The position numbers were made by a program, and so were the translations under genes. A model generated the notes under the pieces. It was not told the origin of the DNA, made no database searches, and saw only the letters and a program-made list of their open reading frames with translations. A DNA stretch of 64,000 nucleotides from Ruditapes philippinarum (lineage: Eukaryota): NCBI RefSeq assembly GCF_026571515.1, contig NW_026853862.1, forward strand, positions 1 through 64,000. Direction: 5' to 3'. This document shows, one piece after another, positions 12,116-42,818 of the stretch. Each line of letters starts with the position of its first letter. Within the stretch, counting starts at the first letter, position 1.

Positions 12116-13903
12116 TTATTCTACCAACACTTTGAAAACTTTTATTTTATTTGGCATTCCCACAAACAATCTCTTAGTGACTGGGCAGTATGCAACTCTC
12201 TCTGGCTTATCTAAGCCATCATTTTTATCTATCAAAATCTTCACTTTAGTGAGGTCACTTGATACTTGATGGATATTTCCAGAGTGAAAACCACAAACAT
12301 ATACTGATCCATATTCATCAACAGCAAGTTGATAAGGTGTTTTCAATTGATCATCCTTGTAGACAGCCTTCACCTTACCATCAGGTTAAACAGGTGTGTG
12401 TTTTTTGCGATCAGAAACATATATCATAGTATTGTCAGGACTGACAGTTAAGTAGCAAGGTTCAATAAACAGATTTTGACCATTATCATCTTTGCCAAAT
12501 GTTTTCACTATTTCACCTGACATACTTAGAATCTTAACAATAGCTGGATTCCAATATGAAACTACAAGATAGGGATTCCTATAGGCAATACCAGTACAAA
12601 GACCATTTACTGGTATTTCAGTGATATCTAAAACTTTCATATCTTCTGAAAATGTTATAAATCTGATCATGCTTTCATTTGGAAATGTTACAGCAACTTT
12701 ATAATCTGAAACTTTTGTAATATCAAATGGATTTGAACAAAATTTTACGTCATCCATACGATTTGCCTGTGAATTTTCTAGTTTGTATATGACTAGGCTA
12801 CACTTTTTATAATCTGATATAAGAAGTGTATGTTCAGATAGGACAAATAAAGAGGATATGAGGTCAATGTGACAGTTGATATCAAAATTAAATACAACCT
12901 TCCTTACTACAGCTGATGCATCTACATTTTCAAATGTGAAAAACCTTGTTTCACTTTCAAGAGATAGTTCTGTTGGTTGAATGTCTGAGGTTTTGAGTTT
13001 GTAGTGCTGTATGTAGGCTTGTTGTATTTGTTCAATATTTTGGTGAAGTTGTTCACACAGTGGTTTTGTAGATTTCAATTTTATAAAAAGTTTACAGTTT
13101 TCACCTAATTTCTGGGCTTGTTCTAGATCAACAGTAAGAACCTTCAAGTTTTCAACCAAATTCAAATGTTCTGACTTGAGTACCTTAAATTCTGTGTTAG
13201 TGCTCAGAACCTTTTCTTTCATATCTGTTTCAGCTTTTGTTATCTTGTTTTTAACCATTCTCTCCTTTTCAGACAACACTTGAACTAGATCTAACTTTTC
13301 TTGCTTCAACTTTGCAATGGCCTCTTCCATCATTTTATCAAAGTCATCAATAAGATCTTGATGTTGTTGTTTTTAGGCTTCTATCAGTTTATCTTTGTGC
13401 TCCTTACATGCTTCTATTGCCTGTTCTTCTTGTTTGTGAACCACTTTACTATTGTCATTTAACAGCTTTTCTGTGTCTTTTATGTAAACAGTCATTTTAT
13501 CCAATTTCTGTTGAAGGTCTTTTAGTTCATCACTATTTTGTATGCCTGAAGCAACGGTTGGTAAATGGTTCACGTCACTACATTTAACATGCTCATTATC
13601 CTTGCATTTTTTGCAGGCTTCTTTGCTACACTCAGAGCAGTAAAACTTGATCAGCTGTTGAGGATGATTGTAACACTTTTCTAAATAAAAATCTTGTGGC
13701 ATACTGTCACTATCTTGAATTTTGTGAGTTTTTGATTGTCTCTTATGATATTTTTGACAGGTCACACATTTATATTCCACACAATCCACACAGAAAGCTA
13801 CAGCGGGTGTATAGCCATCACCATGTTTTTCACATTCTTCACAGTACATTTCCTTAACTTCATCTGAGTCAAATGTTGTTGATGCACCGTCATCAGTAGC
13901 CAT
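12116..13903 (-). pseudogene. RING-less TRIM-like gene (B-box x2, coiled coil, NHL-like beta-propeller), copy A, disrupted
   Basis: Three collinear ORFs (13373-13903, 12386-13333, 12116-12373) homologous to the intact 597-aa copies. There is an in-frame TAA at 13373-13375 and small deletions near 12385-12395. Confidence 0.88.
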
Positions 13904-15996: not shown

Positions 15997-16158
15997 AGTA
16001 ATATAGGTTATTACGCTTCTCCCCCACCCTAAAAAAAAAAAATATCATCCCGTTATACCCCCAAATTGAAAAGTACAGAAATGCTTAAATCATGATAATT
16101 ATAGTACCCGCCAAAAAAAAAAAAATTTTTATCCCCGGCGGGACTCGAACCCGCGACC
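15997..16158 (+). repeat. Polinton left terminal inverted repeat
   Basis: Reverse complement of 31733-31895; differences are mainly homopolymer lengths and a few small indels. Confidence 0.93.
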
Positions 16159-16199
16159 TCTAAACCCGAAAAAATTATATTAATAAAAAGTAAAAAAAA

Positions 16200-16846
16200 C
16201 TATATAATTTCCAAAACACAACTAATTGTTAATCCATTGTTGTTTATTTTCTGACCTTTCTCATCACAAACGCTTATACTTAATTCAGAAATATCACCAT
16301 GTGTCAATTGTTTGTATTGTGGATTACTAAAATTAATATGAACAATATCACCGAATGGTTTATTTTCAACGGGAACAACACAAAGAATATTACTAGGAGC
16401 ACCATCAAAGAAATTGTAAGAACTATTTATCTGCTCAAGATGAACATATAGTTGTTTATAAGGTGCAAAATCTATTGTTCTTTCACCGTAGTGCGTTTCA
16501 TTAGCAGTAAATCCTTTCTTATTTTTTAAACCCTAATATTTGTTTTTAAACCTTTACTTATATTCAAATTATCTGAAGTAATTAAAGAGGCAATACCATT
16601 TGTTTCATTTACAGTTAATGTAATATTATAATTGTCAAATATATCTACTATTTGTTGAAAACTGTAATAACCATTTGTAATCTTGTTAGGACTATCAAAA
16701 TACTTTGTATATATTCATCAATTAAATTATACCAACCTATAGTATAAGTAAAAACTCTTTAATCCGATTCTCTTATTTCCACATTTGTTATCTATATATT
16801 GTAGCAAATTTATAGTGTTTTCAATGTTTGAAATTGTTTGATACAT
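16200..16846 (-). pseudogene. Minor capsid (penton-like) protein, frameshifted as assembled
   Basis: Pieced translation MYQTISNIENTINL...GWYN...ITNGYYSFQQIVDIF...VNETNGIASL...PYKQLYVHLEQINSSYNFFDGAPSNILCVVPVENKPFGDIVHINFSNPQYKQLTHGDISELSISVCDEKGQKINNNGLTISCVLEII* fits the single jelly-roll minor capsid pattern of Polintons. Confidence 0.7.
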
Positions 16847-16862
16847 TTTTTAATGAATAAAA

Positions 16863-18220
16863 ATGACAGTACATAATTTCAAATACAACAAAGAAGTAGT
16901 TTATAATACAGGAGGAATATACCTTTAAAAACCTATAAATATAATAAAACAATCCGTTATTATTTCATCAGATAAATAAAAGTTTTAATGCGGATTTCCC
17001 AAATATATTTGAAAATTACCTATTACCAAAAATATCATCAAATGAAATAGTTAATAGATGGAATGCAGACTGGTTATCGTTTTTGGCAAAATCAATTAAA
17101 CTTTGCTATATGGGTGTGCTACTATACAGGTTGTGGTATAGATGTTAACAACCATTTAAAAGCAGGAGGGTTGACCGGTTCACTATTCTTATTTCACGTT
17201 TACTACCAAACAAGAAGAATATTATTTGAATTATCTATTGCCCTACCACAAGATAAAAGTTGGAATGCATTTAACAACAGTTATGACCGTGGTGCTTACG
17301 AAAGAATATGTAAAGAGTTTAATGTAGACCCTCATTCAGATTGGAGACAAAAAATGTATCCGAGTGGTGATGGTTTAGGATTAGTTCACACAACTAGTCA
17401 CTCTGCATGGAAACGAACTGATTTTAGACATGATTATTCTTCAAAACATATTTCTAGCAGCACATCATCTGATTTAGATTTAACAAAAATGACATTCGGA
17501 CCAGAAGTTCCAGGTGGAAGAAAATGTGGTATTTCATCATGCGAATATCTTCCACCAAAGAAAATTCATATTGATTATATTCAACAAGAAGATGATGTTA
17601 AGCGATGTTTGGATCTAATCTTATTCTCGATACTGCAGAAGGTTCTCGCGAGAGCAGGCGGCGTTCACGGATTGAACGAACAATATAGAACTATGCTGGC
17701 TATTCTTGTTCCACCAAATCTCAAACAAGAACTGATTAACCGGAAACAGGAACAGCTTTTGATGCGCGCAAAAGAAAAGTTTCTTGCAATGTTGAACGAT
17801 GCTATCAATACCCTTAGATTTACAGTATCCTAAATAACCGATGATCAAAACCACATTCAAAATTGCAGAAGTAAAGTGACTATTTTACGGAATTGGCTTT
17901 GTACATGTTCCTCCTCAATCCTGGAATAAAATTGGAGAAATACAAACTCTAATAATAAAATTAAACAAAATGATATCAAAAAGCTCGGATTGAATAATGA
18001 TGTTAATATTCAACCAATTCCAACAATTATACATACAGAAATTAAAGGAACGCCAACAAAGAAATCTTTACCAGAACCTAAAGAAATAGCTAAATCTTTA
18101 GTTAAAGTGTCAGATGTAATAGAAAAAAATATATCAATAGAACACGAAGATAAAAGAGCAGCATTAATCGTTGGTAGTATAGTAATAGGTATTATTACAT
18201 TTTACTTTTTACGAATATAA
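16863..18220 (+). pseudogene. Polinton hypothetical protein with C-terminal transmembrane segment, frameshifted as assembled
   Basis: ATG at 16863, core ORF 17063-17833 (FWQNQLNFAIW...FHVYYQTRRILFEL...AYERICKEFNV...DWRQK) and tail ORF 17990-18220 (HEDKRAALIVGSIVIGIITFYFLRI). Confidence 0.6.
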
Positions 18221-19513
18221 TTATTAGCAGTTGCATACAACATTCCGACAACAAGAACAACTACAGCCCATAAATGTTCACCAAACCAGGATACAACTTT
18301 ACCCGCGGAAGAAAGCAACCAAGAAACAATAGCACCGATAATACCGGGCAATGCTTCTGCAGCTTTACCAGCTAGAGTAGCTAACAGTTTACCAAGATTT
18401 GATAATTGTTTTTTTATCCAGTCTTTTACACCACTTCCATCTTTTGGAGGAGGCTTAGGTGTTGTAGTTCCACCACCGGTAGTAGGAATTAAAGTCTCAA
18501 CAATAACACCAATAATCATTCCAAAAGCAGTTAAAACACTAACAATTGTAATTCCTTGTTCTCTAAATAATGTTTTTATTCTCTGAGCTAATGTAGTGTC
18601 TTCTTTTAATACTTTATTTATTGTTTCCTTTATCCTATTTACCTGACTACGTAATTTATCTCTATAACATTAATTACTTCCAGTCTTGCACTTTTTTTTC
18701 AAACTCCAAATCTCTTATTCGACTACTTATCCTTTCTCTATTTGGAATTCATCATTATCTGATTTGGCTTGTTCTAATTTATGTTTTTCTTTTTTCTATG
18801 TCTTTATTTGTTTCATTCAATTTAGTCAATTCATTTGCAATCTCTTCTTTTACAGTAGTCATTGCTTTGAGGACACCATCCATTTCTCTCTTTGTCATAT
18901 CTGTTTGTGTTTCTTGTTCGTCAGTAAATGATGTTTCTATTACTTTCACTGCAGTTTCAGCTGCATTAGGTAAATCAGTCATTTCTATATTATCAACATT
19001 AGGTAGATCATCTTTCACCTTTTGCAAGCTTTTAGCCGCTTGTGCTGATAATCGTTTTAGTTGTAGATCTATAATCAGGTAAGCTTAATAAGTCTCTAAT
19101 TTTATTTTGCTCCACCACTACCAATTCTACTCGACAAAGAACCCAAGTTTATAAAACTACCACCTTTTTTGGTAGTAATTTGAATATCTATATCACCTAA
19201 CTTTAAAAATAGTGTTTTATTATCAGGACCAAGTTCAAAGTTTGAATAATCAATAAATACTGGGTCTAACCCATACTTTTTCTTTTATCAACTTGTAATA
19301 TTCTTTAACTACATATTGTTTCTGTTTTTACTATTAATTGTGTTCTTGTATCAACATCATCACCGATATCCTAACGCAATATGAGCACTTTGGTTTTGTA
19401 TAGTTCTATTAAATTCATAATCATCATCTACAATTAATTATTATCCTCATCATAGTCATCTTTATTATCAAACGCAGAATTATCAAATTTCAAATTCGCC
19501 TTGTCAAGCCCAT
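18202..19513 (-). pseudogene. Coiled-coil protein with hydrophobic/amphipathic C-terminal helices (putative membrane-active virion protein), frameshifted as assembled
   Basis: ATG at 19513, acidic N-terminus, coiled-coil ORF 18779-19027 and C-terminal ORF 18202-18519 (KDWIKKQLSNLGKLLATLAGKAAEALPGIIGAIVSWLLSSAGKVVSWFGEHLWAVVVLVVGMLY). Confidence 0.6.
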
Positions 19514-19560
19514 TTTAATGTCACTTAAAAAATATCCTTCAAAAATTGTCCCTTCTAAAA

Positions 19561-20873
19561 ATGTCGGCTTTTGGAGAAGAAAATTACTAACCCCGTACAC
19601 TGAAAATTCAATAAGAGAACCACGTGGTTATATCCCCACAGAGGAATTCGTCAGCAGTGTTGTTATAACCAATAATCATTTCAACTATTGACCAAAAATC
19701 AAGAACGACATCCACAGGTCGAGATTTCCTAATCTAAGTAGCAATCGCATTTATTGTTCCCGGATCAGTCAGATTAAGCATTTGAAATTTGAACGAAACT
19801 CTAACAAGATGTAAATGCAACAGTATATCATGAACATAGGGACCAGAGGCAGATAATTAAGAAAACAACAATTAGAATAAGTGGAGCAAAGTTATGTCTA
19901 TTGATGATAGCGATATTTACCATTGTTATATCGATTTATGGAAGTCTCCCCCTGAACGTTTAAATATGGCCTATCAAGGTATCGGTAAAAATAATATGTT
20001 AAAACATAGGATTGGTGCTGCAGATGCTTCATCAGACAAAGAAGACGAGGCTGTAGCAAAAGCATACAAGAACAGATTTTGCATCCCACTTGATTTTGAA
20101 CTATTAGAAACTCATATGCCATTTTATCAAGCTGGTCTTGGTGACAGACTCGAATATGAACTTACTTTCAATGATTATGAAAAAGTAATTAAATCAACAG
20201 ATGCTACTTCAAGTTATACAATCAAAAACATATGTTTGGAATTCGATATGGTGTCTGACCCAGAACTTGCAAGACAAATAAGACAACAGGTAGATGGTAA
20301 AATGGTTATTTTATATGACAGAATACTAAGACACAGAAAAATAACTAAAAATAAATCTGATACGCTTTGGAATATTAATCTAAATGTTCCTGCTAGAAAA
20401 GTATGAAAGGTATTCTAATGTTAATCGAAGACCCGGAAAGAACATCAACTGAAACTTATTACAATCCGAATATAACAAAGCTAGAAATGACAATAGAAGG
20501 CAGTCCCGAATCAACTCATACAGTCAAGGAATGAAATCTTATCAACAGTGGGATGAGATAAATAAATCCCTTGCTTTTAAATTCAAAACGAAATAAAGAA
20601 ACAAGTATGATTGTAAAAGATTTATGTTTCACTAGTACAAACATTAAGAAAATATCTAACAAACAATTATGCATTATGGTTAGATTTACGTTCAACGGAT
20701 GAGAAACACCATGGTCTTCCGGAGAAGAATGAAAAGTGCAATCAGAAGGGTATAACAAACAAATCGAGAAAGAAGCAGGAGCATGAACTACTAAATTTTA
20801 CTTTATATATTATACAAGATGCACAATTAGATTTTGAAGAGGGTAGATCTTAAAAAAGAAATTAGTGTATTGA
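19561..20873 (+). pseudogene. Major capsid protein (double jelly-roll, hexon-like), frameshifted as assembled
   Basis: Core ORF 19894-20406 (NRFCIPLDFELLETHMPFYQAGLGDRLEYELTFNDY...YTIKNICLEFDMV...WNINLNVPAR) continues out of frame with MKGILMLIEDP...YYNPNITKLEMTIEG and ends YIIQDAQLDFEEGR. Size (~430 codons) and position next to the ATPase are typical. Confidence 0.8.
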
Positions 20874-20916
20874 AGTCGATAAGTAGAATTATCTTTTTTT
20901 TTGCGAGTTATTAAAA

Positions 20917-21536
20917 ATGACTACGCAAAATACATCCCCACTGCTGAATTATTTGCGGTCAAAACGGTTGCGGAAAGACTGAATTCGTTTAGACTTACTG
21001 TGAAAATCGAATATGCGGGTGTATTAAATAATTGTTATACTTTGTCCAACATTCACTGGAGCAACAGCATCAGCAAAAATCGTGAGTGGTATTGGTGACG
21101 TCGGAAACCGCAAAATCAAAAAATTCTATAATCGTGCAAATCCGTATCCCTCAATGGTGAAGAGAAATTAACAAGAACTATTAAAATGATTCTTCAAAAA
21201 AGACGCTGGTTCTCCTACTTTAATACACTCATGTGATCGATGCAGTCGCTGACAAAAAGATAACGAGAAAAAAGATATGCTTTGGAAATGCTTTTAAAGA
21301 ACAATAGTAATCGCGAGTTAATACAAAGAACAATTCATCTCTTAACACCCAGATGTCCAGAACGAACCAAACAACCGTACCTGTTTTACACAAACCGCAC
21401 CAGAGATAGCTTTGAAAATGTCTACAAATGATGTCATTCCACATCGAAGAAAGGCAAAGAATAAAAAAAGGAGACAGCATCGTAAATTATTCTTGAAAAC
21501 TGACCACCATACTAAAATTTATGGGTAGTTGATTAA
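20917..21536 (+). pseudogene. A32/FtsK-like genome packaging ATPase, heavily frameshifted as assembled
   Basis: Walker A ICGQNGCGKT at 20951-20980 directly downstream of the MCP gene, with a degenerate Walker B-like region near 21225-21250. Confidence 0.75.
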
Positions 21537-21552
21537 GTTATTTTTTATTAAT

Positions 21553-21860
21553 CTAATGCTATTAGTAATGCTTTAGAAATGTTTTAGTAATGCTTTAGGG
21601 CAATGCTTTAGTAATGCTAAAATCATATAAAATAAAAATAAAATTTTTACTTAAGTATGCTTAAGTAATGGCTTTAGTAATGCTATAGTAATGCTTAAGT
21701 AATGCTGAAAGTAATGCTACTAGTAATCGCTATAGGTTTTTACATAATGTTTTTTAAGTAATCGCTTTAGTAAATGCTATAGTAATGCTATAGTAATGGC
21801 TTTAGTAATGCTTAAGTAATGCTTTTAGTAATGCTTTAGTATGCTTTAGCCAATGGCTTA
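21553..21860. repeat. Internal 11-bp tandem repeat array (AGTAATGCTWW) in two blocks
   Basis: About 20 degenerate copies of AGTAATGCTTT/AGTAATGCTAT/AGTAATGCTTA, separated by an AT-rich spacer at ~21621-21650. Confidence 0.88.
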
Positions 21861-21896
21861 GATTTTTAATATTACTTAAAATAGAATAAAAATAAA

Positions 21897-22950
21897 ATGA
21901 TACCCTGAAATACTTCAAATACTAACAATTATAAACAACACCTGCAGCTTATTCGAGTAGTTCGCAAACTATTCGCGTATTTAATTATTATAAAATAAAA
22001 AAAATCTTAAAAATATACCTAATTGAAAATGATGCTCGAAAAAATACTCAAGAAAACCATACATGTTGATGAAGAATAATGAATTAGTATGAAATGAAAC
22101 TTGATAGATAGTGCATCAAATGTTATTGCTGGTGGAGGAAGTAAGACAACTATCTTGAAAAGAATACCAAATGTCAGGACATTGATACAATTGACAACCA
22201 GAACAAATAAATAAACCTATACTCGCAGATATGAAGGCTAGATTAGGTAGGAAGTAGTGACTAGACATTGGGAAAACTCTTTTATTATTTATATGTTATG
22301 GGTGTATCAAAATATGGTTAATGTTGTGGATCCCCCAAAATTAATACAAGATTTTAGAAGAAGATCCATTTGTAAATAATGCTCTGAATAGTTCATGTTG
22401 TAAACTTTATTATAATACGGAATGTATCTTGCTCCTTTTACTGGCTATGTTAACAACAGCAAAACATATTGATTTTAATAAACCTCCTGATGAAATTACT
22501 ACAGATAATGAATTAGAAAATATTACTATAAAAAAATGACGAGTGAAAAAGTTGAAATTATTATGACCGGATGAAAAAGAAAAAACTAAAGAAAAAACGA
22601 AAAACCAAAAAGAGTATCTGCAGGTAAAAGAATTGCAGAAGCTAAAAAATAAAAGCAGAATTAAAAAGAAAAGAAATAGGAAAATATTGATAAAGAAAAT
22701 AAACAATCTAAATCCACAGGAATAACAAAGATGATGATGATGATGAAGTTAAAAAAGTTAAAGAAGTTTAAATACATACAAAAATTATATACCTTTATGT
22801 CTAATTGGAGTTGGATTGGGAATATATATTTATAAGTCTTAACCTATTATAAAACATCAACATGTGATACAAAAGCAACCTGTTCTACAAAAAAAAGAAA
22901 TTGAGTCAAAAGAAAATAGTATAGGAAGTTGGTAAAAAAAAATTGTTTAA
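21897..22950 (+). pseudogene. Cluster of small Polinton hypothetical genes, heavily frameshifted as assembled
   Basis: TAAAATG-type starts at 21897 and 22536. Fragments include VVDPPKLIQD/EEDPFVNNALNSSCCKLYY and a Lys-rich KTKNQKRVSAGKRIAEAKK followed by hydrophobic YIPLCLIGVGLGIYIYK. Confidence 0.45.
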
Positions 22951-22965
22951 ATTTAATATATAAAA

Positions 22966-23211
22966 ATGGCGACACAAATTGATGGGAAAACAAATAGCGA
23001 ACATGTTATATCATGCTGGAGTGGAAACTGTATTAACAATTGGGTATTCAGAACTAGGAAGAAAACTATTGAAAAAACGCAGCACCAAAAGTAGATTTTA
23101 ATATGGGTGATATTGGAATGTTATCTATTGATATATTACTCGCAATGGCAAAACAAAAGGATATGTTGGTTAAGCCAGGGTATTATACCTAGCAGATATT
23201 AGATGAAGTAA
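22966..23211 (+). pseudogene. Small Polinton hypothetical protein (~80 aa), frameshifted as assembled
   Basis: MATQIDGKT/IANMLYHAGVETVLTIGYSELGRKLLK...PKVDFNMGDIGMLSIDILLAMA/KDMLVK... Confidence 0.55.
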
Positions 23212-23236
23212 TTATTTTATTTTATTTATTTCAAAA

Positions 23237-23670
23237 ATGGCTAAGTGCAGTAATATGATGATTTGGGTGCAGCGGGTTAATGCTTTACGCCTTTTCGGGG
23301 TAGTAATTATTTGTTTTCGCATATGGTAAAAATATGATATAGAGAGAAAAAGACAATGATAAACGCGATGGAAAAATTATCCAAGAAGAACAACTGCATG
23401 GAAATGAAAAGAGAACAGAACAGATTAGATTTTTATTAATGAAACAAATGAAAAAGGAACGTCATGCTACGGAAGAATTTGATAATGCTGATACAGCATG
23501 AAAGAATATTATTATATTACTGGTAAAACAATTACCGGCTTTACCTCCTAAAACCCGTATTAAGTGATTTCTACACTCCGTCAGAAGACGCAGAAAAAAT
23601 AGAGAGATTGCATTTATTATTGGTGGTATGGCATTAACATAACTGGTTTCTTGTATATAAAATTAAGTAA
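23237..23670 (+). pseudogene. Small Polinton protein with hydrophobic N- and C-termini, frameshifted as assembled
   Basis: Fragments GSNYLFSHM, MKKERHATEEFDNADTA, MKEYYYITGKTIT/LPALPP, VLSDFYTPSED and REIAFIIGGMALT. Confidence 0.55.
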
Positions 23671-26600
23671 AATAACCATAAGGTAAAGTATCTATTATCC
23701 ATTATCACATATATATCTTTTATCATCAAAAGTAGATAAACCTATTTTAAATCGATTCATTTAAATATATATTTATGTTTTTTATGTACTAAATTATTCA
23801 TTTTTTTATGAATTACTTTTTTCTTTAATAAACAATCTTCATATGATTCAGTATTAAATTCTTTTTTAGTTGTTTTATTAACACCTTTTGCAGTACATTT
23901 TGAATATAACATTAGAATCTTCTAAATATTCAAAACTATACATTTTACTTCTTATTCCAATGAAATTTGTCATTACATTCCTCTCCTAATTCATCTTTAA
24001 ATTTTCCAAAATTCAACTTTTTTATTTTTATTTGAAAACAATGGATGCTCCTTAGGATAATTAGACAAGTATCTAAATTTTCATTTATTTTTCTAAATCA
24101 GAATATAAATCTTCTGTATACTATATATTTAATACCATGCTGTCAGTATTCTTGATATAAAAGTTCATTATTTGGAAAATACTTTTCAATTGTGTCATAA
24201 TAAAACTTGTACATTACTAATTTAGAATAATCTAAAAACACACATTCCTAAATAAATAGGTTTTAGTAAAGTACATTGATTTATAATTTAATAACACTGC
24301 TTTAAAATTATTATTAAAATCTATAATTATCTTTGAAAATTATCGTTTAGAAGCTAATCGTTTTAAGTCTTCGGGTTTATTTATTAATTCAACTATACAT
24401 CTATTAGAAATATTTTCCAAAGTTTTTCCATAGAAAGAATTATTAATTAATTTCCAGAAATCTTTTTCAAAATCATTTGTTGCTTTTGCTTCTCAATCAA
24501 TATATGGTTTAACCAAGCTTTATGATTAAAGGATATTATACTATGAATCTTTGATACTTTTATTCCAAGATATATGTAATATTTTAGAATATCATAATGT
24601 ACAATATACTCTTTTTTATCATGAAGATCTAATATTAATTTTTCAACTTTTCCTAATTTATTATTATTTTGTTTTAAAGAAATCTCTTTGAATAATCTGA
24701 TATTCATTTTCATTAATTTTTCTTGATAAAGGCATAGTAGGAAACTTTCTTAATTTAATTTTTGTTATTTTATCATATTCTAAATCTACTTTAAAAATCA
24801 TTCCAACATCTTCATTACATTTATCTAAATAATATTTATTTCCTGATTTTCTACTTCTTCCCATTTAAAATTTTTATAAGGTAATTTTGCTGATAATCAC
24901 ACACCCATATAAATTATTTGCATCGGTATACCATAAATAATTAGGTTTATCTATTTTCTCATTTTTATTTGTATATTTATTAAAAGCTTTAACATATCTT
25001 GAACCTAATACTCCTGAAAATCCTCCTCTTGTTCCTCTTCAATCATAATCTTTCATATCTTTGTCTGTTAACAAATCTAATTCAATACCAGTATACTTTA
25101 ATCCTGCATTCCATGATAAACCAGGAGCAGAATAACAATAAGCTGGATCTATTTCATAATGTTTTAAACATATATCTCTAAAATTTTCAAATACATCTGC
25201 TAATATTAAAACATCAAGTTTCTGATATATCATTAAGTAATCTTCAAATGTTTTACAATATTTATTAAATATCTTTTTACCATGATTATATTCTTTTTCA
25301 GAAATATCTTTTTGATATAATATAGAATAAAATTCTTTTTTATCAGGAAAATTTTCTAGTTTTAATTTATCAAAAGAATCAAAATAATCATAAGGAAATA
25401 TTCCTTTAAAACTTCTTTCATTATTTTCAATATATTTTAAATCTTCAAATAAAGTATCATCCGATAATTCCCTTTTAAGTATTTTATATTTATCATCTTC
25501 TAATGTTTTTGATAAATTATCTATACTACTTAGTAAAAATCTCATACTATCTTTAAAAAACTAACTTAAAATATTTATCTCCGAATGTTATTGATATATA
25601 ATTTTCACTATCCTTTGGTAAAACTTTTACTTTATTATATTCAGTTTCATGTTTTAATAGTTCTTCTGTTAGGAAATGGAAATCATACCCACTTCCATTA
25701 TGAAAAAAGATTGGAAATTGTTTCCCATCTCTAGATTCTTTACTATTACAACTGGAACATGAAATTCCTCTAAATTCACCTGATAAATGATCATGTTCTA
25801 TTATCTTTTCCTTTCTTTCTAATTTCTTTTTACACATATAACAACAATCAGAAGTATTATATAGTTCTTCTTTTTCCTTTTTAAAATTTTTTCTGCATGA
25901 TAATAAGCCCACTTGATTTATCATTATACTTTAAACATGTTTTTATAAAATCTTCTTCGGCATTTTCACTAGGTGCATAGTTAATATTTTTATTCGGTAT
26001 GATATCCGGATAATCAGAAACTAATTGTAAATTATATGAAACTACTTTCTGTTGTTGTAAATTTATTGTATTATCTTTAAATGATAGTTTGATATTTTCT
26101 CTTTTTATTTTATTTCGTAGATTATCACTAATTTCGCTAATATCTTTTTTAATTTTTACTTTATTATTTTCACAATATTTTTCTTTTTCATATTCTGATA
26201 TTTCTATATGTCTACCGTCCTTCAATCCATTTATCAAAAATGTTGTCTATTAATTTGTTCAAAATATTTTTTTAATACAATTTTCTTTAATTTTATCCAA
26301 ATATATTTTAGTTCTTTCATCAGATATTTTATTATTAACATAATTATGATAAATTCTTTTAGCTTCTTTTTTAGATATTTTCTTCTTCTTTCATTATTTT
26401 ACCGATAATAATATTCTTTACTTTAGAATTAACATTATGAGATTTACTTTTTATTTTTAATTTATTTATTTGTTTTCGTAGGTCTACGTCAATATAACTT
26501 AATTTTATATTAATCGCTTCAAAGTCTGCATATCCGACAAATGGTAGTTTTAATTTAAAATGATGATTTTCAAATTTACATTTACTTCCTTCTGGTGGCA

Positions 26601-27589
26601 TTATAAATTTAAACGGTTCATTTTTTTGCAATCTTTCATATGTTTTTCTAAAGCTTTTTCAGTAGTATATGAAGCAGTAATACAATTTCTACAATGATAT
26701 CTTTTATTATGATTATGATAAGATAAGCATTAAAATCTTTAATTAAGCAATAATGTTTTTTGTCATTTAGAGTGACATGTAATAAATCTATAACATATTT
26801 TCTATCTTTAAATTTACTTATGTACATTGGATAAATATCACGTAAATTTTTTTCTTGTTGTGGTTTTTTAAAATCTTTATTTTCAGGATCTAAAAGTTCC
26901 TTTTCAATTCCGAATACATTAATAGCTACATTTTCATTTTGTTTTTCAAATGTTCCAATTGAATCTATACTTACTGGGAATTTAATATTTTCCATATTAA
27001 TATGATCTAGAAAAGGTTTATAAATTGATACTCTTGCTGGGTTTTTATTCATTTTTTTAAATATATCTGAATATTTTTTTTATCTTCAGGTTTCTCTTTT
27101 AATTTATATAGCATTCCAGCAATTACACTATAAGCAAAACAGTGATTATCATTGTTTTGAATATTTAATAAACTATTGAATTTTATTCCTAGATCAAAAT
27201 AAGAAGATCCATTTAGACTTCTTACTCTTACAACTTTAACTTCCGTATTTTCTATTTCATTAAATATTAATCCAGATTCTTTTCCCTGATGTTCTTCTTC
27301 CCATACTTTATACTTTTCAATAATAGAATTATATACTTCATTAAATTCATTTTGAGCATATGAAGTTTTATAAATCCGCTATTATAATGTCTCTCTATTT
27401 TTTCATCCATTGCTATAGGCTTTGAATAAATAGTTTTATTATTAGATTAAATTTAACATTAGGAAATGATGAAACTAATCTTTTAATATCTGGTTTAATA
27501 TTTCTAAAATAATTATTTATATTAATACCACTTTTATTAATAACTTCCTTAACATAGTTTTTATTGCTACCGGATTTTTTGAATCCCAT
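23663..27589 (-). pseudogene. Protein-primed family B DNA polymerase (pPolB), frameshifted as assembled
   Basis: Motifs in order: ExoI GYADFEA; EndoVII-like Zn motif CYMC...EHDHLSGEFRGISCSSCN; ExoII FHNGSGYDFHFL; KGIFPYDYFDS; ExoIII YQKLDVLILADVFENFR; GTRGG; YTDANNLYG; KLINNSFYGKTLEN; disrupted YxDTDS near 24140-24160; C-terminal LSTFDDKRY...TLPYGY. Confidence 0.93.
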
Positions 27590-27614
27590 TTTATTAGAAA
27601 ACAATTTGAATAAG

Positions 27615-27833
27615 CTATAATTTTTTATCGTGATAATAATTAGGATTTCTTGTCATAAATTCTTGAAAAGCCTGTTTATATTTTTCTTTGTTTTTTTGAT
27701 AATGTTTTTGTTTCATAGGTTTATTACATTGTATACATGCAGATTTAACTCCCATCGCAAAACCTTTTGCTTTATGATATTCGCTTAGTAATTTGTATTC
27801 ATTACATTTTGTACAGATTTTTCCTTCTGTCAT
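27615..27833 (-). CDS. Small Zn-binding protein (CxxC...CxxC, basic tail), 72 aa
   Basis: MTEGKICTKCNEYKLLSEYHK...SACIQCNK...; intact ORF with TAAAAAATG start, divergent from the integrase. Confidence 0.7.
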   Translation of the reverse strand: MTEGKICTKCNEYKLLSEYHKAKGFAMGVKSACIQCNKPMKQKHYQKNKEKYKQAFQEFMTRNPNYYHDKKL

Positions 27834-27849
27834 TTTTTATGTTTTAAAA

Positions 27850-28801
27850 ATGGAGCATCCGAAAATATATTGTTTACGTTGTAAAAAACATACCGATAAT
27901 GATTCAGTAGAGCAAGTAACAACAACTAATAATAGACAAATGCTAAAAGCTAAATGTTCTGAATGCGGATCTAAAAAAAGTAGATTTATAGCTGGTTTAA
28001 CAAATAAATTAGCAGATGAATTACATCATAGAGTTATAAAAAAAATTCCTAAAAGACGCATTTATGTTCATTCAGTAGATCAGACATGGGCAGTTGATTT
28101 GGCAGATGTGCAACAATATTCGAAACAAAATAAACACTATAAATATTTATTAGCAGTTATAGATGTTTTTAGTAAATACGGTTGGCTAATTCCCTTAAAA
28201 AATAAAACAGGAGTAACGGTAAGTGAAGCATTTAAAACATTATTTGAAGAAAGAAAACCAATGTATATTTGGTCAGATAAAGGTTCTGAATTTTATAACC
28301 GGCAAGTAAAAGAATTGTTAAAAGAGAATAACATAAAGTTATATTCAACTGAGAATGAAGAAAAATCTAGTGTAGTAGAACGCTGGATAGGAACAATGAA
28401 ACAACGTATGTTTAAATATTTTACTGCTCACGAAACTAATAAATATTATGATGTATTAGATGATTTAGTTAAAGATTATAACAATACAGTTCATTCTTCT
28501 ATTAAAATGACACCTGTTGAAGCAATTAAAAAAGAGAATGAATCAACAGTGTATGAACATTTATATCCGGAAAAAGAAGAAGTAATTAAAAAACCTAAAT
28601 TCAAAGTTGGAGATAGAGTAAGAATTGCAAAAATGAAAGGTAAATTTGAAAAAGGTTATACAAACCCGTTGGAGAAGAGAAATATTTGTAATTGATGAAG
28701 TTTTAAATACAGATCCTGTTACTTATAAAATAAAAGATTTAAAAGATGAAGAAATTAAAGGAAGTTTTTATGAACAAGAATTACAGAATACTGATTTTTA
28801 G
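27850..28801 (+). CDS. Retroviral-type (rve) DDE integrase with N-terminal Zn ribbon; one frameshift near 28665
   Basis: MEHPKIYCLRCKK...AKCSECG Zn ribbon; catalytic WAVDLAD, WSDKGSEF and ENEEKSSVVER; YNNTVHSSIKMTP; PKFKVGDRVRI. The C-terminus continues in another frame as EIFVIDEVLNTDPVTYKIKDLKDEEIKGSFYEQELQNTDF* (TAG 28799-28801). Confidence 0.92.
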
Positions 28802-28810
28802 AATATAAAA

Positions 28811-30201
28811 ATGAGTATCTTTGGAATCAAAAAACATAAAAGAAACAACTCTGAACTTGGTAATAAAATGAATATACCATTAGATATGAGCGGTAACTCT
28901 ATAATTAATTTAGGAAATCCAGAAAAACCAAGTGATGCTGTTAGCAAAAGATTTGTTTTTAGGAAAATTAAAAGTGTAATAGACGACTATGAATTGGAAG
29001 ATATAAAAAACATTAAAGACTTACTTCAAACAGAAAAGTCAGACATTGATCAACTTTCTGAAAGTATTAAAAATAATGAAGAAGCAATAATCACACTGCA
29101 CGGTCAACTCCAGAAAGAAATGGCAATCTTATCAGAATCACTTAGTAAAACAGATGATGAAATAAAAGTTGCATTAAGGCAAAACATTCTTTTAATCGCA
29201 AACCGAATTGATAACATAAAGAATAGCATGATTAAACACAACGAACTTAAGAACAAATTTGCTGAAGCTGAGAAAAAGCTACAAAATATGTATAAGTTAG
29301 AAATAAAAGAAGAAATAAAAACGTTAAAAGATGACTCAACGGAATTGTTTAATACATTTTCTGAAAAGTTTGATGAATTCAAAGCACAACTAGAACAATC
29401 TGCTTCACAAAGAAACGATGCTCAAGATGGAGAAATTAATAATTTAAAAGTTAAATTAAATCAAATGAAAGATTTGCTTACTAATAATCTGCAGAAAGAA
29501 ATTACCAGACTTGATGTGGATGTTAAGAAAAATGCAGATGATACTAGAGATGCAGTTAACAAAATAGATACAAAAATAGAAAGTCTCGAAGAGGTTCAAA
29601 CAAAACGTGTTAATGATTTAGGTAAAACAATACTTGATACAGTCTCAGACCTTTCAGAGGCGAAAAGGGCGATTTCTGATATTATTAACAACAAAATATA
29701 TCATGTTCCTTTATTACATATGCGGAATGATTCTACTCTAGAAGTTAAAGTTTTACCTACTACTTACGAAATCGGTAAAAATAATCGTTATATTAAAACT
29801 CATAATCTATTTAAGTTTTTTAATTATCATTATTCACCTGTTGTAAATTATAATGATTATATAGAAGAGGAACTTGATATGAATATAGGTGACTTTAGAA
29901 ACGTGAGTGGTTTTACAACTAAAAAAGATGGAACATACTACATTAATATAAAACTTATAATAAAGGGTAAAAGCGACTTTTTATTGATATGGCAGGAAAA
30001 TTACAGATCTGAAAACGAAGACAGGACTCATGAAGTACTTTTAAAAAGATCAACAGTACTGATGAAAAATTTTTTGAAGACGTTATAAAGCAACAGTTTT
30101 TAAAGAATACATCAATTGCAATTATTCCAGTCTCGGTTACTGACCAATTATTTACTATTGAAAAAGGCAGCTACATTAGATTTACATATTCTTGGGAATA
30201 A
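28811..30201 (+). CDS. Putative fibre/receptor-binding protein (neck motif, long coiled coil, beta-rich head); ORF 28811-30088 plus frameshifted tail to 30201
   Basis: N-terminal LDMSGNSIINLGNPEKPSDAVSKRFV fibre-neck-like motif, ~240 aa of heptad coiled coil and a C-terminal GFTTKKDGTYYINIKL. The alternative frame continues KINSTDEKFFEDVIKQ...GSYIRFTYSWE*. Confidence 0.7.
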
Positions 30202-30228
30202 ATTATATTCAAAAAATTACCTTTAAAA

Positions 30229-30872
30229 ATGAAGACACCAACAGCTCCGGATCCTTTATATCCAGAATTACCAGTAGAAGATGGACAAAATTATAGATTA
30301 CAGAAGATATCAGAAATAGAAAAAAAATTAATTAATGAGAGGGATACTCGTAAATCATTATACAAGAAATATAAACGCGGAATTAATATAACTGACGGTG
30401 TTGATACTGGTTTAATATCAACATCCGTTATTTTAGCCGGTACTAGCTTAGCTATTCCTTTTATGTTACCTTTAGGAATTGCAGCCGCTGTATGCGGAAG
30501 TTTAGGAGTATGTGTTAAATTTATTAGACGTAAATTACAATCAAAAACAAAAAAAAACATTATGAGATTAAAACTATTGCTGATAGTAAATTAAATAGTA
30601 TAAAAGATTTGACTTCAAAAGCTTTAACAGACGGACAAATATCTGAAAATGAATTTAAATTGATTTTAGATGAATTAGATAAATATAATAAATTGAAAGA
30701 TAGCATACATTCAAAACAAACAGGATTGAGTGAGACAGAAAGAAAAAAGTTAATAGAAAAGGGAAAAGCACAGGCTTTAAACGAGTTAAAAAAAAAAGGT
30801 AAATGTATAATTTTATTCACTAAAGTTACAATAGTAAATGATCCTCCACCTATTTATTCAAGCATAAACTAA
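30229..30872 (+). CDS. Polinton membrane protein with central hydrophobic hairpin and ESCRT late-domain-like motifs; one frameshift in the A-run near 30550
   Basis: ORFs 30229-30594 and 30609-30872 join across an A10 run: MKTPTAPDPLYPELP...YRLQKISE...LYKKYKR...(hydrophobic)...KHYEIKTIADSKLNSIKDLTSKALTDGQISENEFKLILDE...NDPPPIYSSIN*. Confidence 0.75.
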
Positions 30873-30893
30873 TATTTTAATTCCTTGTACAAT

Positions 30894-30907
30894 AAAAAAC
30901 TGCAAAA
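30894..30907 (-). terminator. Putative Pol III oligo-T terminator of the structured RNA
   Basis: Minus strand TTTTGCAGTTTTTT (T4 at 30907-30904, T6 at 30899-30894) immediately after the terminal stem. It overlaps a plus-strand AATAAA (30891-30896) of the convergent gene. Confidence 0.6.
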
Positions 30908-31276
30908 TCCTTCAACCGCCTAATCCTTTAGCCTTAGGACTGAGTTATTCTTTATTTGTGTGCACCCTAGCCCTAAGACTTGTTGGTTTCGGCACTTTTC
31001 TTAAGCTATTCACCTGGAAGCTATCCTGCTCGGGTTATTACTTCGCTTGTTAGGTCACCTTTAACCCCGTTTGATAACCTCTCGAAACCTAAACCAGAGA
31101 TCATCAGAGGTAAGGCAACCATTCTGTAAATCCATACTTGGTAAAGAATTCTTTTCAGTGCACACAAACCCAAGTATGAATATACAGGTAGCGAACTTTT
31201 CCGAACACTATCTTCCCTAGCAGCGAATAGAGTCATACACAGTGCCTACACCCAGACTAGAACGGCATTCAGACAT
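30900..31276 (-). ncRNA. Candidate ~375-nt highly structured Polinton-encoded ncRNA (probable Pol III transcript)
   Basis: Nested helices found by eye: 31266-31254/30926-30915, 31246-31241/30996-30991, 31230-31222/31014-31006, 31216-31209/31023-31016, 31207-31201/31033-31027, 31195-31190/31047-31042. Hairpins: 31187-31170/31141-31124, 31120-31113/31060-31053 with 31106-31096/31082-31072, and 30980-30969/30941-30930. About 15 G.U pairs, valid only on the minus strand; GC content is above the flanks. Confidence 0.75.
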
Positions 31277-31294
31277 TAATGTAATATGAAATCT

Positions 31295-31310
31295 ACCTAT
31301 ATATATAGGT
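31295..31310 (-). promoter_or_regulatory. Palindromic TATA element (ACCTATATATATAGGT) about 25-30 nt upstream of the structured RNA
   Basis: Perfect 16-bp palindrome containing TATATATATA (31298-31307), at U6-like spacing from the first paired nucleotides. Confidence 0.55.
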
Positions 31311-31732
31311 GTATTTTTCTTCCGACAAATTGACTGGTTTTAAAATTGCATAATTTACAATATATTTCTCGTTCATACCAAGATGTTATTTAGACATGAT
31401 AATAAAACATAAAATTTAAATATATATTTATATGTATATGTGTATATGTGAATTTTACATTGTTTTAATTTGTTAAAGGGAGGTAATGTTATCGGAAAAC
31501 AGTATTAAAAATAGATATTATGTTTAAGTTATCAGACCATAAAGTTAACCACAAAGAGCAGTCAGTCGTTTCAATGTGTTTACATAAAGTACATTAATAA
31601 ACCACAGGCATTTATAAATTTAAATGTAGTATTTTAAGTGCATAGATTTAAACGTTAGTGAATTTTCGTTTTATAAAATTTTAATGTTTTCAAGGGATCC
31701 CTCTAGAGGTTAATTTTTTTTTATTTTTTATG

Positions 31733-31895
31733 GGTCGATGGTTCGAGTCCCGCCGGGGATAAAATTTTTTTTTAGGGCGGGTACTATAATCATGATTTAA
31801 GCATTTCTGTACTTTTCAATTTGGGGGTATAACGGGATGATATTTTTTTTTTTTTTTTTTTAGGGTGGGGGAGAAGCGTAATAACCTATATTACT
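31733..31895 (-). repeat. Polinton right terminal inverted repeat
   Basis: Reverse complement of 15997-16158, ending ...CCTATATTACT and followed by the TSD AGTAAA. Confidence 0.93.
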
Positions 31896-39442: not shown

Positions 39443-39712
39443 GGGGCGCCCTTGGACAAGTGGTTAAGGTCGTTGATTTCAAACCACTTGCCGCTCACCT
39501 CCGTGGGTTCGAATCCCGACAAGGACTTTGAATGCTGTCATGTGAGGAAGCTATCCAGATAGCATACAGGTCGTAGGCGGTTCTACTCAGGTGCCCTTTC
39601 GTGCACGGCACCTGTGGTCTTCCTCCACCAGTAAAGTCGGAACGTCGCCACATGGCCATACTGTGTCAGTGCGACTTTAAACACAAATAAACATAAAAAC
39701 AAACGAAATAAA
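39443..39712 (+). mobile_element. tRNA-derived SINE, well preserved
   Basis: A box TGGACAAGTGG, B box GGTTCGAATCC (39507-39517), conserved core TGTGAGGAAGCTATCCAG...GGTTCTACTCAGGTGCCC and an A-rich tail. Confidence 0.8.
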
Positions 39713-40270
39713 AAACCAGTCTTTAATCATATATTTGTGTTTATGCATTTTATAAGTATGAAACATTTACAGATATCAGATGTTTTATTGAAAGCAGACA
39801 CGCAAAATTACAAAGATAGAAATGTAAAAAAAATGAACTACTATCAATTGAAACTAGCAGGCAATTACACACATATGTTAACAATATTTTCATTTCTTGT
39901 TTTATCATGTACTAGCTGAATATTGCATTTCAAGATTTCATGTTGTATGGCTTTGTTATTATCAGGTTCAGCTAGTTATCTGATGATTGCTGGCCACATG
40001 AGGTCAAACTCCATGTGGGGCAAGTCGTTGAAACTTATTATTATATTTTGTGCTTATTAATGGTTTAGTTTAGGAGTGGATTAAGGAATACAGTGTGTCT
40101 TTAAGGTGATAGCTTCCTTCACAGTCAAAGTTAAATAAAATCTGTATAAATGAAGATTACATGTGTCATATTTCAGTTAAGTGTATTTAGGATTATGACC
40201 CTTATTCTACTGCAATAAAGCAGTAGGATAAATGCTTGTGATGAGTCTTTTTGTCAATGTCTGTTTTTGT

Positions 40271-42068
40271 TTATTCTTGTAACACTTTGAAAACTTTAAC
40301 TTTATTTGGCATCCCAACTAACAATCCCTTGGTATAAGCGCAATATGCAAGACTGCTTGGTTTATCTAATCCATCATTTTTATCTATTAAGATCTTCACT
40401 TTAGTGAGGTATCTCGATAATTGATGGATATTATCAGAAGCAGCTCCACACACATATACTGATCCATAATCATCAATAGCAAGTTGACGAGGCATTTTCA
40501 AATCATCATCCATGTAAATGGCCTTCTTCTTACCAGCAAATGTCAAACAGGTCACGGTGTGTTTGTTCGGATCAGAAACATATATCATAGTATTGTCAGG
40601 ACTGACAATCAAGCGCCAAGGAGTAATAAACAGTTCCTGACCATTATCATCTTGTTTAAATGTTTTCTGTATTGTTCCTGTCATACTTAGAATCATGACA
40701 CTACCTGGATACAAATATGAAACCACAAGACAGTGATTCCTGTAGGCAATACCAGTGCAAAGACCTTTTCCTGGCATCTCGGTGATACTTGAAACTTTCA
40801 TATCTCCTGAAAATGTTATCAGTCTGATTAATCTTTCATTTGGAAATGTTACGGCAACTTTAAAGTCTGAAACTTTTGTAATGTCCCACGGACTTGTATA
40901 AAATTCTATGTTATCCATACAATTTGCCTGTGACTTTTCTATTTTGTATATGACTAGTCTACACTTTTTCCAATCTGATATCAAAAGTGTATGTTCAGAT
41001 AAGACAAGTAAAGAGGATATGACGTCAATGTAACAGTTGATATCAAAATTGAAAGCAACTTTTGTTTCTATTTTTTCAAATGTGAAAAATCTTGTTTCAC
41101 TCTCTAGAGATTGTTCTGTTGGTTGAATGTTGGAGGTTGTGTGTTTGTAGCACTGAATGCAGACTTGTCGAATTTGTTCAGTATTTTGTTGTAAGGGTTT
41201 CACACATTTGTTTTGCTAACTGTAATTTGATAAAAAGTTCACAGTTTTGACCTAATTTTTTGGCTTGGTCTAGATCAGAAGTAAGAACCTTTAAATTCTT
41301 TACCAAATATAAATGTTCTGACCTTAGAACCTTAAAGTTTGTGTTTGTGCTAGCAACCTGTTCTTTCATATCTGTTTCAGCTTTTGTTATCTTGTTTTTA
41401 AATTTTCTATCCTTTTCGGATAACTCTTCAACTAGTTCCAACCTTTCTTTCTTCAACCTTTCAATGGTCTCTTTCATCTTCATATTAAAATCTTCAATGA
41501 GATCTTGATGCAGTTGTTTAAAGGCTTTAAATAGTTTATCTTTGTGCTCCTTGCATGTTTCAGTTGCCTTTTCTTCTTGTTTATCAACCACTTCACTTTT
41601 GACATTCAAAAGCTTTTCTGTGTCTTTTATATCAGCATACAATTTATCCAAGTTCTGTTGAAGGTCTTTAAAGTCTTTACTTTTTTGTATGCCCGAAGCA
41701 AGTGTTGATAAATGGTTCACGTCTCTACAGTTTACATGCTCATTATCCTTGCATATTTGGCAGGCTTCTTTGCTACACACAGAACAGTAAAACTTGATCA
41801 GCTGTTGAGGATGTGTGGAACACTTCTCAAAATAGAACGATTGTGGCATCTTTTTACGATCTTGAATTATGTGAGTTTGTGTTTCTCTCTTATGATATTT
41901 TAGGCAGGTCACACATTTATATTCTACACAATCCACACAGAAAGCTACAGCTGTTGAATAGCCATCACCATGGTTTGCACATTCTTCACAGTACATTTCC
42001 TTAACTCTGTCATCGTGTTGTGTTACTGAAGCACTGTCATTCGCAATCATTTTATTTTGTTCAGTCAT
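40271..42068 (-). pseudogene. RING-less TRIM-like gene, copy B, with a single +1 frameshift (possibly a sequencing error)
   Basis: ORFs 41178-42068 (B-boxes CEEC...FCVDCVEYKCVTC..YH, CSTH...YCSVC...C..C...H, coiled coil) and 40271-41203 (NHL-like blades) join if one G is removed at GGG 41195-41197. Confidence 0.85.
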
Positions 42069-42818
42069 TTTAGGAATATCTTCATTGTATCGACTTTTTT
42101 GTTATTATATCCTTTCCCTTGAAGTAAAGTAAATGTAATAGAGTTTGAATGTTTTTCTTTAAGACATTGTCATGATTATTTTAAGGTTACTTTATAGGCC
42201 ATATATATAATGATAAGTGATCATATGAGTGACCAAAGTTTTTGTTTAATTTTACCATACGACAGTTTGATAAGCCAGTATCAGTTTGATAGTGATTGTA
42301 AATTGTTATCAATGAAATGTCAGTTCATTCATGTCATAAAAACTTCTACCTTTGACTTTCTTAATTATACATACCTCTTAGGCGGTTATTATATAAATAA
42401 ATAATAATAGCTCTAATGTCCTGATAAAAGAAGTAAATCAGATATATTACTTTTTATTTAGTTTTTGATATATTTTCCCCATTATTCATATAGTTAATTG
42501 TATACATAGTAAATTTAATTTAGATTTACTGATATTTCAAGATTTCATGTTGCATGACTAAGTTGTTATCACATTGAACTAGTAATCCAACGACTGCTTG
42601 GTCGCATTGGTTCGACAAGCTGTTGCTTCCTTGATAAAAAAAATGAAATATTTACTGAATACGGGTTGTTTCCTAGAACGGATTCAAGAATACAGAGTTT
42701 GTATTAAAGTTGATAGCTTCCTGGGCAATCATACTTAATAAGGACACTCATTCCATCCTAATGAGAGGAGTATTTAAATTTAGTTGTTGATGATTCTTTG
42801 TGTAATAGTTGCTATTGT

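What the first reader, a model, noticed from the sequence alone, without database searches (positions are those of the whole stretch)
30891..31350. U6-like Pol III transcription-unit signature around the structured RNA
Seen in the sequence: the palindromic TATA element ACCTATATATATAGGT (31295-31310) lies about 25-30 nt upstream of the folded region. The minus strand has no run of four or more T over ~370 nt (only TTT, several times), then T4 and T6 directly after the closing stem. T4 or longer runs are very frequent elsewhere in this element. The T6 overlaps the AATAAA of the convergent membrane-protein gene. Inference: a type-3 (gene-external) Pol III promoter and terminator, unlike the internal A/B-box promoter of adenovirus VA RNA. 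I could not confidently identify a PSE.
Basis: partly seen in the sequence, partly recalled or inferred. Interest (0 to 1): 0.7.

Follow-up and report, generated by a model that had tools for sequence, protein, structure and literature searches.

The report
Polinton virus-encoded folded Pol III RNA
A virus-like jumping element in a shellfish-type genome appears to carry its own gene for a 370-letter, tightly folded RNA, switched on like the cell's U6 gene, which may be an invertebrate counterpart of the small RNAs adenoviruses use to blunt host defences.

Summary
The coordinates check out. Inside a 15.9-kb Polinton/Maverick (inverted ends, 6-bp target duplication, integrase, pPolB, jelly-roll capsid fragment), minus-strand 31274-30904 folds far better than shuffles (z -6.1) and only as minus-strand RNA (plus strand z -0.8). 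The TATA box ends 23 nt upstream of G31274, which pairs with the first U of the T4, so predicted start and stop coincide with the two ends of the fold. Each signal alone is weak: the T4-free body has P about 0.22 by composition, and 16-bp palindromes occur six times in the window. Together they are unlikely (rough 4e-4, post hoc), and the unit ranks first of 91 TATA-to-T4 units. New here: two hairpin loops are complementary over 11+8 Watson-Crick pairs across a junction (0 of 150 and 0 of 2000 shuffles), implying a tertiary fold. No Rfam family matches, no homologue could be fetched, the PSE could not be tested, and nothing shows transcription. Best reading: a U6-type Pol III gene for a novel viral RNA, most likely a VA/EBER-like decoy or scaffold.

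The parts
15997..31895 (.). Host element: Polinton/Maverick (adintovirus-type endogenous virus), genes broken by frameshifts
   Evidence: Inverted terminal arms (I2, I5, I6), 6-bp target duplication AGTAAA, rve integrase, pPolB, EndoVII, double jelly-roll capsid look-alike 19894-20403, score 0.97
30904..31274 (-). Predicted 371-nt structured RNA (381 nt if read to the T6)
   Evidence: MFE -134.6, z -6.1, 0 of 100 shuffles; plus-strand RNA z -0.8; minus-strand DNA z -1.85; lowest MFE of 682 tiles
31295..31310 (.). Palindromic TATA element; alternating TA core 31298-31307, ending 23 nt before G31274
   Evidence: wider imperfect palindrome 31289-31316
31311..31353 (-). Region where a PSE would lie (about -38 to -79); holds TTATGCAAT at 31345-31353. 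No PSE identified
   Evidence: no mollusc PSE reference could be read
30904..30907 (-). T4, first candidate terminator; its first U pairs with G31274, leaving a 3' UUU overhang
30894..30899 (-). T6, back-up terminator, overlapping the plus-strand AATAAA
31254..31274 (-). 5' strand of the terminal stem (pairs with 30907-30926; 4+5+7 bp, 4x4 purine-rich loop)
   Evidence: pair probabilities 0.85-0.97
31124..31187 (-). Hairpin A with 28-nt loop (31142-31169)
   Evidence: p 0.98-0.99
31053..31120 (-). Hairpin B, about 25 bp; its loop could pair 7 bp with 30985-30991 (chance level)
30930..30980 (-). Hairpin C with 18-nt loop (30946-30963)
   Evidence: p 0.98-0.99
31158..31168 (-). Loop A segment complementary to 30955-30965 (11 Watson-Crick pairs, 13 with flanking G-U)
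   Evidence: duplex -18.6 kcal/mol
31142..31149 (-). Loop A segment complementary to 30947-30954 (8 Watson-Crick pairs), continuing the loop C strand across the base of hairpin A
30229..30872 (+). Convergent membrane-protein gene, frame break near 30552-30558; relatives in Mytilus
30891..30896 (+). AATAAA of the convergent gene

Best explanation
The Polinton carries a stand-alone RNA gene read leftward by host RNA polymerase III from a gene-external, U6-like promoter. TBP-containing TFIIIB binds the TATA box, transcription starts at or near G31274 and stops in the T4 (T6 as back-up), giving a 371-nt non-coding RNA whose 5' G pairs with the first terminator U and leaves a UUU tail. The RNA folds into a closed terminal stem, a long G-U-rich arm, three hairpins, and a loop A-loop C pairing that locks a tertiary shape. 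The symmetric TATA would be unproductive rightward, where a T4 (31338-31341) follows within about 10 nt of the mirror-image start. Shown: signals, spacing, strand-specific fold, loop complementarity. Inferred: transcription, Pol III (about 0.65 overall), and function. Most likely function (about 0.3 overall): an abundant dsRNA-like decoy or scaffold, in the manner of adenovirus VA RNA and EBV EBERs, that ties up host dsRNA sensors or the Dicer/exportin-5 pathway during replication of the element.
For: Fold z -7.1/-6.1 on the minus strand as RNA, -0.8 on the plus strand, -1.85 as DNA; 19 G-U among 117 pairs. Energy stops improving beyond about 31275 and 30905, so the fold ends where start and stop are predicted. 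TATA 23 nt upstream and T4 at the end meet the type-3 criteria used in PMC4287351. Rank 1 of 91 TATA-to-T4 units by fold z. Rough joint probability 3.6e-4. Loop-loop pairing: 0 of 150 full shuffles reach an 11-bp off-MFE helix; 0 of 2000 scaffold-fixed shuffles reach 9+8. No coding potential found: the 74-codon minus frame has no relative. VA-I has a terminal stem, wobble enrichment and a loop-loop pseudoknot (PMC6599070); VA and EBERs are Pol III, La-bound, abundant (PMC4378190).
Against: One sequence only: no homologue in phages, plasmids, GTDB contigs or elsewhere in the window, so no covariation. PSE untested. T4 avoidance is weak alone (P 0.21-0.23). The joint probability is post hoc, and the tile was placed exactly on the candidate; by composition-adjusted residual it ranks second of 682, behind a DNA inverted repeat. 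In 150-nt windows the region is not outstanding (best z -3.1, eighth of 420): the signal is long-range. Minus-strand AATAAA sites exist. The one distant Polinton fetched (L001) shows no such unit in the part recovered, which lacks its right end. At 371 nt it is more than twice the size of VA RNA, and nothing tested bears directly on function.
Confidence: 0.6

Rival explanations
Compatible with Pol III synthesis; differs in function.
For: 11+8 bp loop complementarity, much longer than the 3-bp VA-I pseudoknot; the order of the two segments cannot arise from one inverted duplication (read); forcing either pairing into a nested fold costs 26-34 kcal/mol, so it is an extra layer, not an alternative fold; 19 bp between two closed loops is topologically awkward in cis (inference).
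Against: No Rfam match to any ribozyme or packaging RNA; no packaging ATPase was recognised in this copy with the one query tried; no RNA requirement is known to me for A32-type ATPases (recalled).
Confidence: 0.15
2. The RNA is a Pol II transcript from the same TATA box, capped and polyadenylated at a minus-strand AATAAA (30956, 30858 or 30817); the T-tracts are the downstream U-rich element or simply the complement of the neighbour's poly(A) signal.
For: A TATA box at about -30 serves Pol II too (established knowledge); three minus-strand AATAAA near the 3' end; the T6 is explained in part by the convergent gene's AATAAA; no PSE found.
Against: The T4 is not part of the neighbour's signal and sits exactly at the base of the closing stem; cleavage after 30956 would cut hairpin C and the terminal stem, and that AATAAA lies inside the loop A-loop C pairing.
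Confidence: 0.13
3. A Pol III primary microRNA cluster: hairpins A, B, C or the terminal stem are cut by Drosha/Dicer into guides.
For: Three 51-68-nt hairpins; Pol III viral pre-miRNAs are known (MHV68, BLV; PMC4378190); weak sub-threshold match of hairpin C to mir-676 (20 bits against a cut-off of 61).
Against: Large loops that pair with each other and a closed multi-branched core are not needed for miRNA precursors; 0 of 9 unpaired or terminal segments find a better target in the element than shuffles (host targets not testable).
Confidence: 0.1
4. A captured, diverged host type-3 gene (RNase P, MRP, 7SK, SRP or telomerase RNA) that brought its promoter along.
For: Size and promoter type match that class; mollusc RNase P RNA genes have type-3 signals (PMC4287351).
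Against: No Rfam hit even at E<=10; no CR-I match under 3 mismatches and no CR-V within 2 (recalled motifs); no full telomere template, only isolated 6-mers.
Confidence: 0.06
5. No functional transcript: the signals are chance in AT-rich DNA and the fold is a DNA element or an accident.
For: Each promoter and terminator signal is common alone; the element copy is decayed.
Against: Strand- and RNA-specific stability, a GC island of 43% in a roughly 28-30% element, and loop complementarity beyond shuffles.
Confidence: 0.06

Closest known systems
Adenovirus VA RNA I/II
   Same: Encoded by a protein-primed, jelly-roll dsDNA virus of the same phylum; predicted Pol III product with paired ends and oligo-U tail, wobble-rich helices and a loop-loop pseudoknot (PMC6599070 passages; PMC4378190 passages)
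   Different: 371 nt against about 160; upstream TATA and no clear internal A/B boxes; 11+8-bp loop pairing against 3 bp; no Rfam similarity; invertebrate host
EBV EBER1/EBER2
   Same: Viral, structured, Pol III, oligo-U end; upstream promoter elements contribute (recalled)
   Different: EBERs are about VA-sized and keep internal boxes (recalled); no EBER2-like complementarity to the element's terminal repeats or genes was found
Cellular type-3 Pol III genes (U6, 7SK, RNase P, MRP, Y, plant/hymenopteran telomerase RNA)
   Same: TATA 21-27 nt upstream, T4-5 at the 3' end; size like 7SK or RNase P RNA
   Different: No family match; PSE not identified; carried on a mobile virus-like element
phi29 packaging RNA (pRNA)
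   Same: Two complementary loops in an RNA of a protein-primed dsDNA virus (pRNA features recalled)
   Different: Much longer loop complementarity, eukaryotic, other ATPase class; no Rfam match
MHV68 TMERs and BLV pre-miRNAs
   Same: Viral Pol III hairpin transcripts
   Different: Those use internal type-2 promoters and simple hairpins; no tRNA here

Membership tests
Type-3 Pol III gene | TATA box 21-27 nt upstream of the RNA | tested here: met
   23 nt between A31298 and G31274 (criterion from PMC4287351); the start itself is predicted from the fold
Type-3 Pol III gene | PSE upstream of the TATA box, shared with host U6/7SK | not testable with these tools
   No host snRNA gene in the window; the supplement with mollusc promoters is a picture; searches gave no mollusc PSE sequence
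Type-3 Pol III gene | Run of 4-5+ T at the 3' end | tested here: met
   T4 30904-30907, T6 30894-30899
Type-3 Pol III gene | No terminator inside the transcribed region | tested here: met
   No T4 in 30908-31341, but P = 0.21-0.23 by shuffling
Type-3 Pol III gene | No internal A/B-box promoter | tested here: inconclusive
   No exact box; best B-like word has 2 mismatches at 31197 (+78), best A-like words 1-2 mismatches, none well placed (recalled consensus)
Type-3 Pol III gene | Transcription by Pol III (5' ppp, oligo-U end, inhibitor sensitivity) | not testable with these tools
   No expression data
Adenovirus VA RNA | Match to the VA covariance model, about 160 nt | tested here: not met
   No match at E<=10; 371 nt
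Adenovirus VA RNA | Inhibition of PKR, Dicer or exportin-5 | not testable with these tools
   Bench assay needed
RNase P / MRP RNA | CR-I and CR-V forming P4; Rfam match | tested here: not met
   (motifs recalled)
7SK, SRP, U6, Y, vault RNA | Rfam match | tested here: not met
Telomerase RNA | Template of about 1.5 telomere repeats next to a pseudoknot | tested here: not met
   Only isolated 6-mers at 31054 and 31037
Conserved structured RNA family | Covariation among homologues | not testable with these tools
   No homologue obtained; viral and metagenome contig collections unchecked
Polinton/Maverick (carrier) | TIRs, 6-bp target duplication, integrase, pPolB, capsid | tested here: met
   packaging ATPase and protease not identified in this copy

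The most novel reading that the evidence does not exclude
Probability: 0.15. Interest if true: 0.92.

Novelty: new variant of a known kind. Interest (0 to 1): 0.7.

Why it matters
Polintons are described as protein-only elements: none of five Polinton papers searched in full main text mentions a non-coding RNA, VA RNA or Pol III, and six library searches listed none (listings only, subscription journals and Repbase not covered). A Pol III RNA gene here would show that the relatives of adenoviruses evolved their own VA-like device with a different promoter, give a cheap marker for whether integrated Polintons are transcriptionally awake, and add an unclassified 370-nt fold with an unusual junction-spanning loop pairing. 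Relatives of the flanking genes are abundant (integrase up to 90-92% identical), so covariation can be tested at once by anyone with bivalve genomes.

Tried and rejected
Rfam at gathering threshold on the window (0 hits) and at E<=10 on 30700-31500 (9 sub-threshold hits, none credible). ARAGORN: 0 genes. blastn of the unit against phages and plasmids: only short chance matches, E>=0.5. Second copy in the window: none. Spurious-frame search for homologues: none. GTDB scan with the neighbour gene: 0 of 95 candidates confirmed; with the integrase: 7 loci of 76 candidates, one 13.8-kb distant Polinton (L001) with no similar sequence and no comparable unit, right end missing (L007 left out as a doubtful hit). 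Guide-type pairing of 9 RNA segments to the element: none beats shuffles (8 shuffles each). ssDNA structure: z -1.85. Hammerhead, group I and H/ACA readings were considered by eye from recalled motifs and dropped: core words lack the needed stems. Loop B pseudoknot (7 bp) is within the shuffle range of 6-10 and is not claimed. Sigma-70 scan uninformative. Mollusc PSE: supplement S2 of PMC4287351 is an image and could not be read; it bears directly on the PSE question.

Full report
Setting. The finding lies near the right end of a 15.9-kb element, 15997-31895, with inverted terminal arms, a 6-bp target duplication, an rve integrase, pieces of a protein-primed B polymerase with an EndoVII domain and a fragment that resembles double jelly-roll capsids (atlas score 0.97, recognition value below the tool's confidence mark). 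This is a Polinton/Maverick. Named relatives of the convergent gene are from Mytilus and atlas clusters are mostly molluscan, so the host is probably a mollusc (inference). Several genes in this copy are broken by frameshifts.

Observation. The T4-free stretch on the minus strand runs 30908-31341. Taken singly the signals are modest. Shuffling the body gives no T4 in 21-23% of 20,000 trials; 38 of 1470 element windows lack T4, but 45 of 200 GC-matched windows do; a coding stretch in the same element has a longer gap (616 nt); six perfect palindromes of 16 bp or more occur in the window.

The fold. Minus-strand 30904-31274 folds at -134.6 kcal/mol, z -6.1, 0 of 100 shuffles as good (z -7.1 for 30893-31280). 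The plus strand gives z -0.8 and the minus strand as DNA z -1.85; 19 of 117 pairs are G-U. This asymmetry points to selection on a minus-strand RNA. It has the lowest energy of 682 tiles of 371 nt and ranks second after adjusting for composition, behind a two-stranded DNA inverted repeat at about 7400-7600; the tiling was phased on the candidate, which favours it. In 150-nt windows it is unremarkable (best z -3.1, eighth of 420), because much of the pairing is long-range. Anatomy: terminal stem; a multiloop giving a long interrupted arm that ends in hairpins A and B; and hairpin C before the 3' strand.

Ends match the signals. Energy ceases to improve when sequence is added beyond about 31275 or below about 30905, until unrelated flank is reached. 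The TA core ends at 31298, 23 nt before G31274, inside the 21-27-nt spacing used to call type-3 genes in PMC4287351 (passages). G31274 follows a T and pairs with U30907, the first U of the T4, leaving a UUU overhang; a T6 follows 4 nt later. From element-wide densities, a TATA end in a 7-nt slot (0.014), a T4 start in a 7-nt slot (0.108) and a T4-free body (0.23) multiply to 3.6e-4; this is post hoc and only indicative. In a blind scan of all 91 TATA-to-first-T4 units of 60-600 nt (77 in the window, 14 in loci L001-L006) this one had the best fold z (-4.8 with 8 shuffles; next -3.8). The symmetric TATA would be unproductive to the right, where a T4 lies at 31338-31341 (inference).

New feature. 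The loops of hairpins A and C are complementary: 31168-31158 with 30955-30965 (11 Watson-Crick pairs, 13 with G-U) and 31149-31142 with 30947-30954 (8 pairs). Loop C reads continuously across the base of hairpin A, making a three-way junction; this permuted order cannot come from a single inverted duplication. None of 150 dinucleotide shuffles had an off-MFE helix of 11 bp (maximum 10), and none of 2000 shuffles of the unpaired positions on the fixed scaffold reached the observed 9+8 (maximum 16). Forcing either helix into a nested fold costs 26-34 kcal/mol, so it is a tertiary or intermolecular layer. Whether all 19 pairs can form between closed loops in one molecule is doubtful on topological grounds (inference). 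A further 7-bp pairing from loop B is within chance.

What it is not. No Rfam family matches at the gathering threshold or at E<=10; RNase P CR-I/CR-V words and a telomerase template are absent (recalled motifs); no tRNA; the longest minus-strand frame has no protein relative; no segment is a better guide to the element than shuffles (0 of 9).

What could not be shown. No homologue was obtained: phage and plasmid collections gave chance matches, the window has one copy, GTDB gave nothing for the neighbour gene and seven integrase loci, of which L001 is a distant, differently ordered Polinton lacking its right end and without a similar sequence. Viral and metagenome contig collections stayed unchecked. 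The PSE is untested: the figure aligning oyster and snail promoters is an image and four searches gave no mollusc PSE. A B-box-like word with two mismatches at +78 is at chance level but keeps a hybrid promoter possible; minus-strand AATAAA at 30956, 30858 and 30817 keep Pol II possible.

Mechanism. I put about 0.9 on a real minus-strand structured RNA, about 0.65 on Pol III synthesis from this TATA/T-tract unit, and about 0.3 on a VA/EBER-like decoy role, the single most likely function. VA-I combines a terminal stem that engages Dicer and exportin-5, wobble-rich helices and a loop-loop pseudoknot (PMC6599070, passages); VA RNAs and EBERs are abundant, La-bound Pol III products (PMC4378190, passages); oligo-dT termination and La binding are general for Pol III (PMC10498592, passages). 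The RNA works, on this reading, like VA RNA but is not a member of that family. The long loop complementarity keeps a structural, oligomeric or catalytic role open (0.15).

Novelty. Term searches of the main text of five Polinton papers (PMC8502044, PMC8097293, 10.1101/2023.08.22.554363, 10.64898/2026.10.13.758929, PMC11071308) found no mention of non-coding RNA, VA RNA or Pol III, and six library searches listed no such report (listings only). Verdict: observation confirmed, interpretation partly supported, a new variant of viral Pol III RNA with an unclassified fold, resting on one sequence. Interest 0.7.

Noticed in passing
window 31740-31750 (+) and 16141-16151 (-): Both terminal inverted repeats hold an exact B-box word (GGTTCGAGTCC), pointing outward; in the left arm it sits in a tRNA T-arm-like context. 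Only 3 such words occur in the window. Possible TFIIIC sites or a tRNA-derived piece; no stable fold.
   Followed up: partly
window 30229-30872 (+), alignment A1: The convergent membrane protein family carries words resembling all three ESCRT late domains (motifs recalled): N-terminal P(T/S)AP, YPEL and, in many members, C-terminal PPPxY, around a hydrophobic hairpin. Possible budding or egress factor. No Pfam family.
   Followed up: partly
window 31289-31316: The TATA palindrome extends to an imperfect 28-bp palindrome, which could also be a site for a dimeric protein.
   Followed up: no
window 31201, 31156, 31000 (-): GAAAAG occurs three times in unpaired parts of the RNA; significance not tested.
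   Followed up: no
window about 39480-39560 (+): Third B-box word at 39506, outside the element, in a 562-nt T4-free unit; probably a tRNA-derived SINE.
   Followed up: no
window 6146-9766: Nested inverted repeats (6146-6361 with 9458-9766; hairpin 7454-7614), probably a foldback or MITE-like element.
   Followed up: no
window 11800-13900, 40260-44610, 59930-61730: Cluster of B-box (TRIM-like) host genes; the Polinton sits inside this cluster.
   Followed up: no
L001 (CBDDTI010000304.1) 2328-13826: A largely intact Polinton plus a neighbouring reverse-transcriptase/GIY-YIG-like fragment (read by eye) is binned in a bacterial MAG, likely eukaryotic contamination; conserved inverted words lie in its two intergenic regions 2392-2467 and 11572-11608.
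   Followed up: partly
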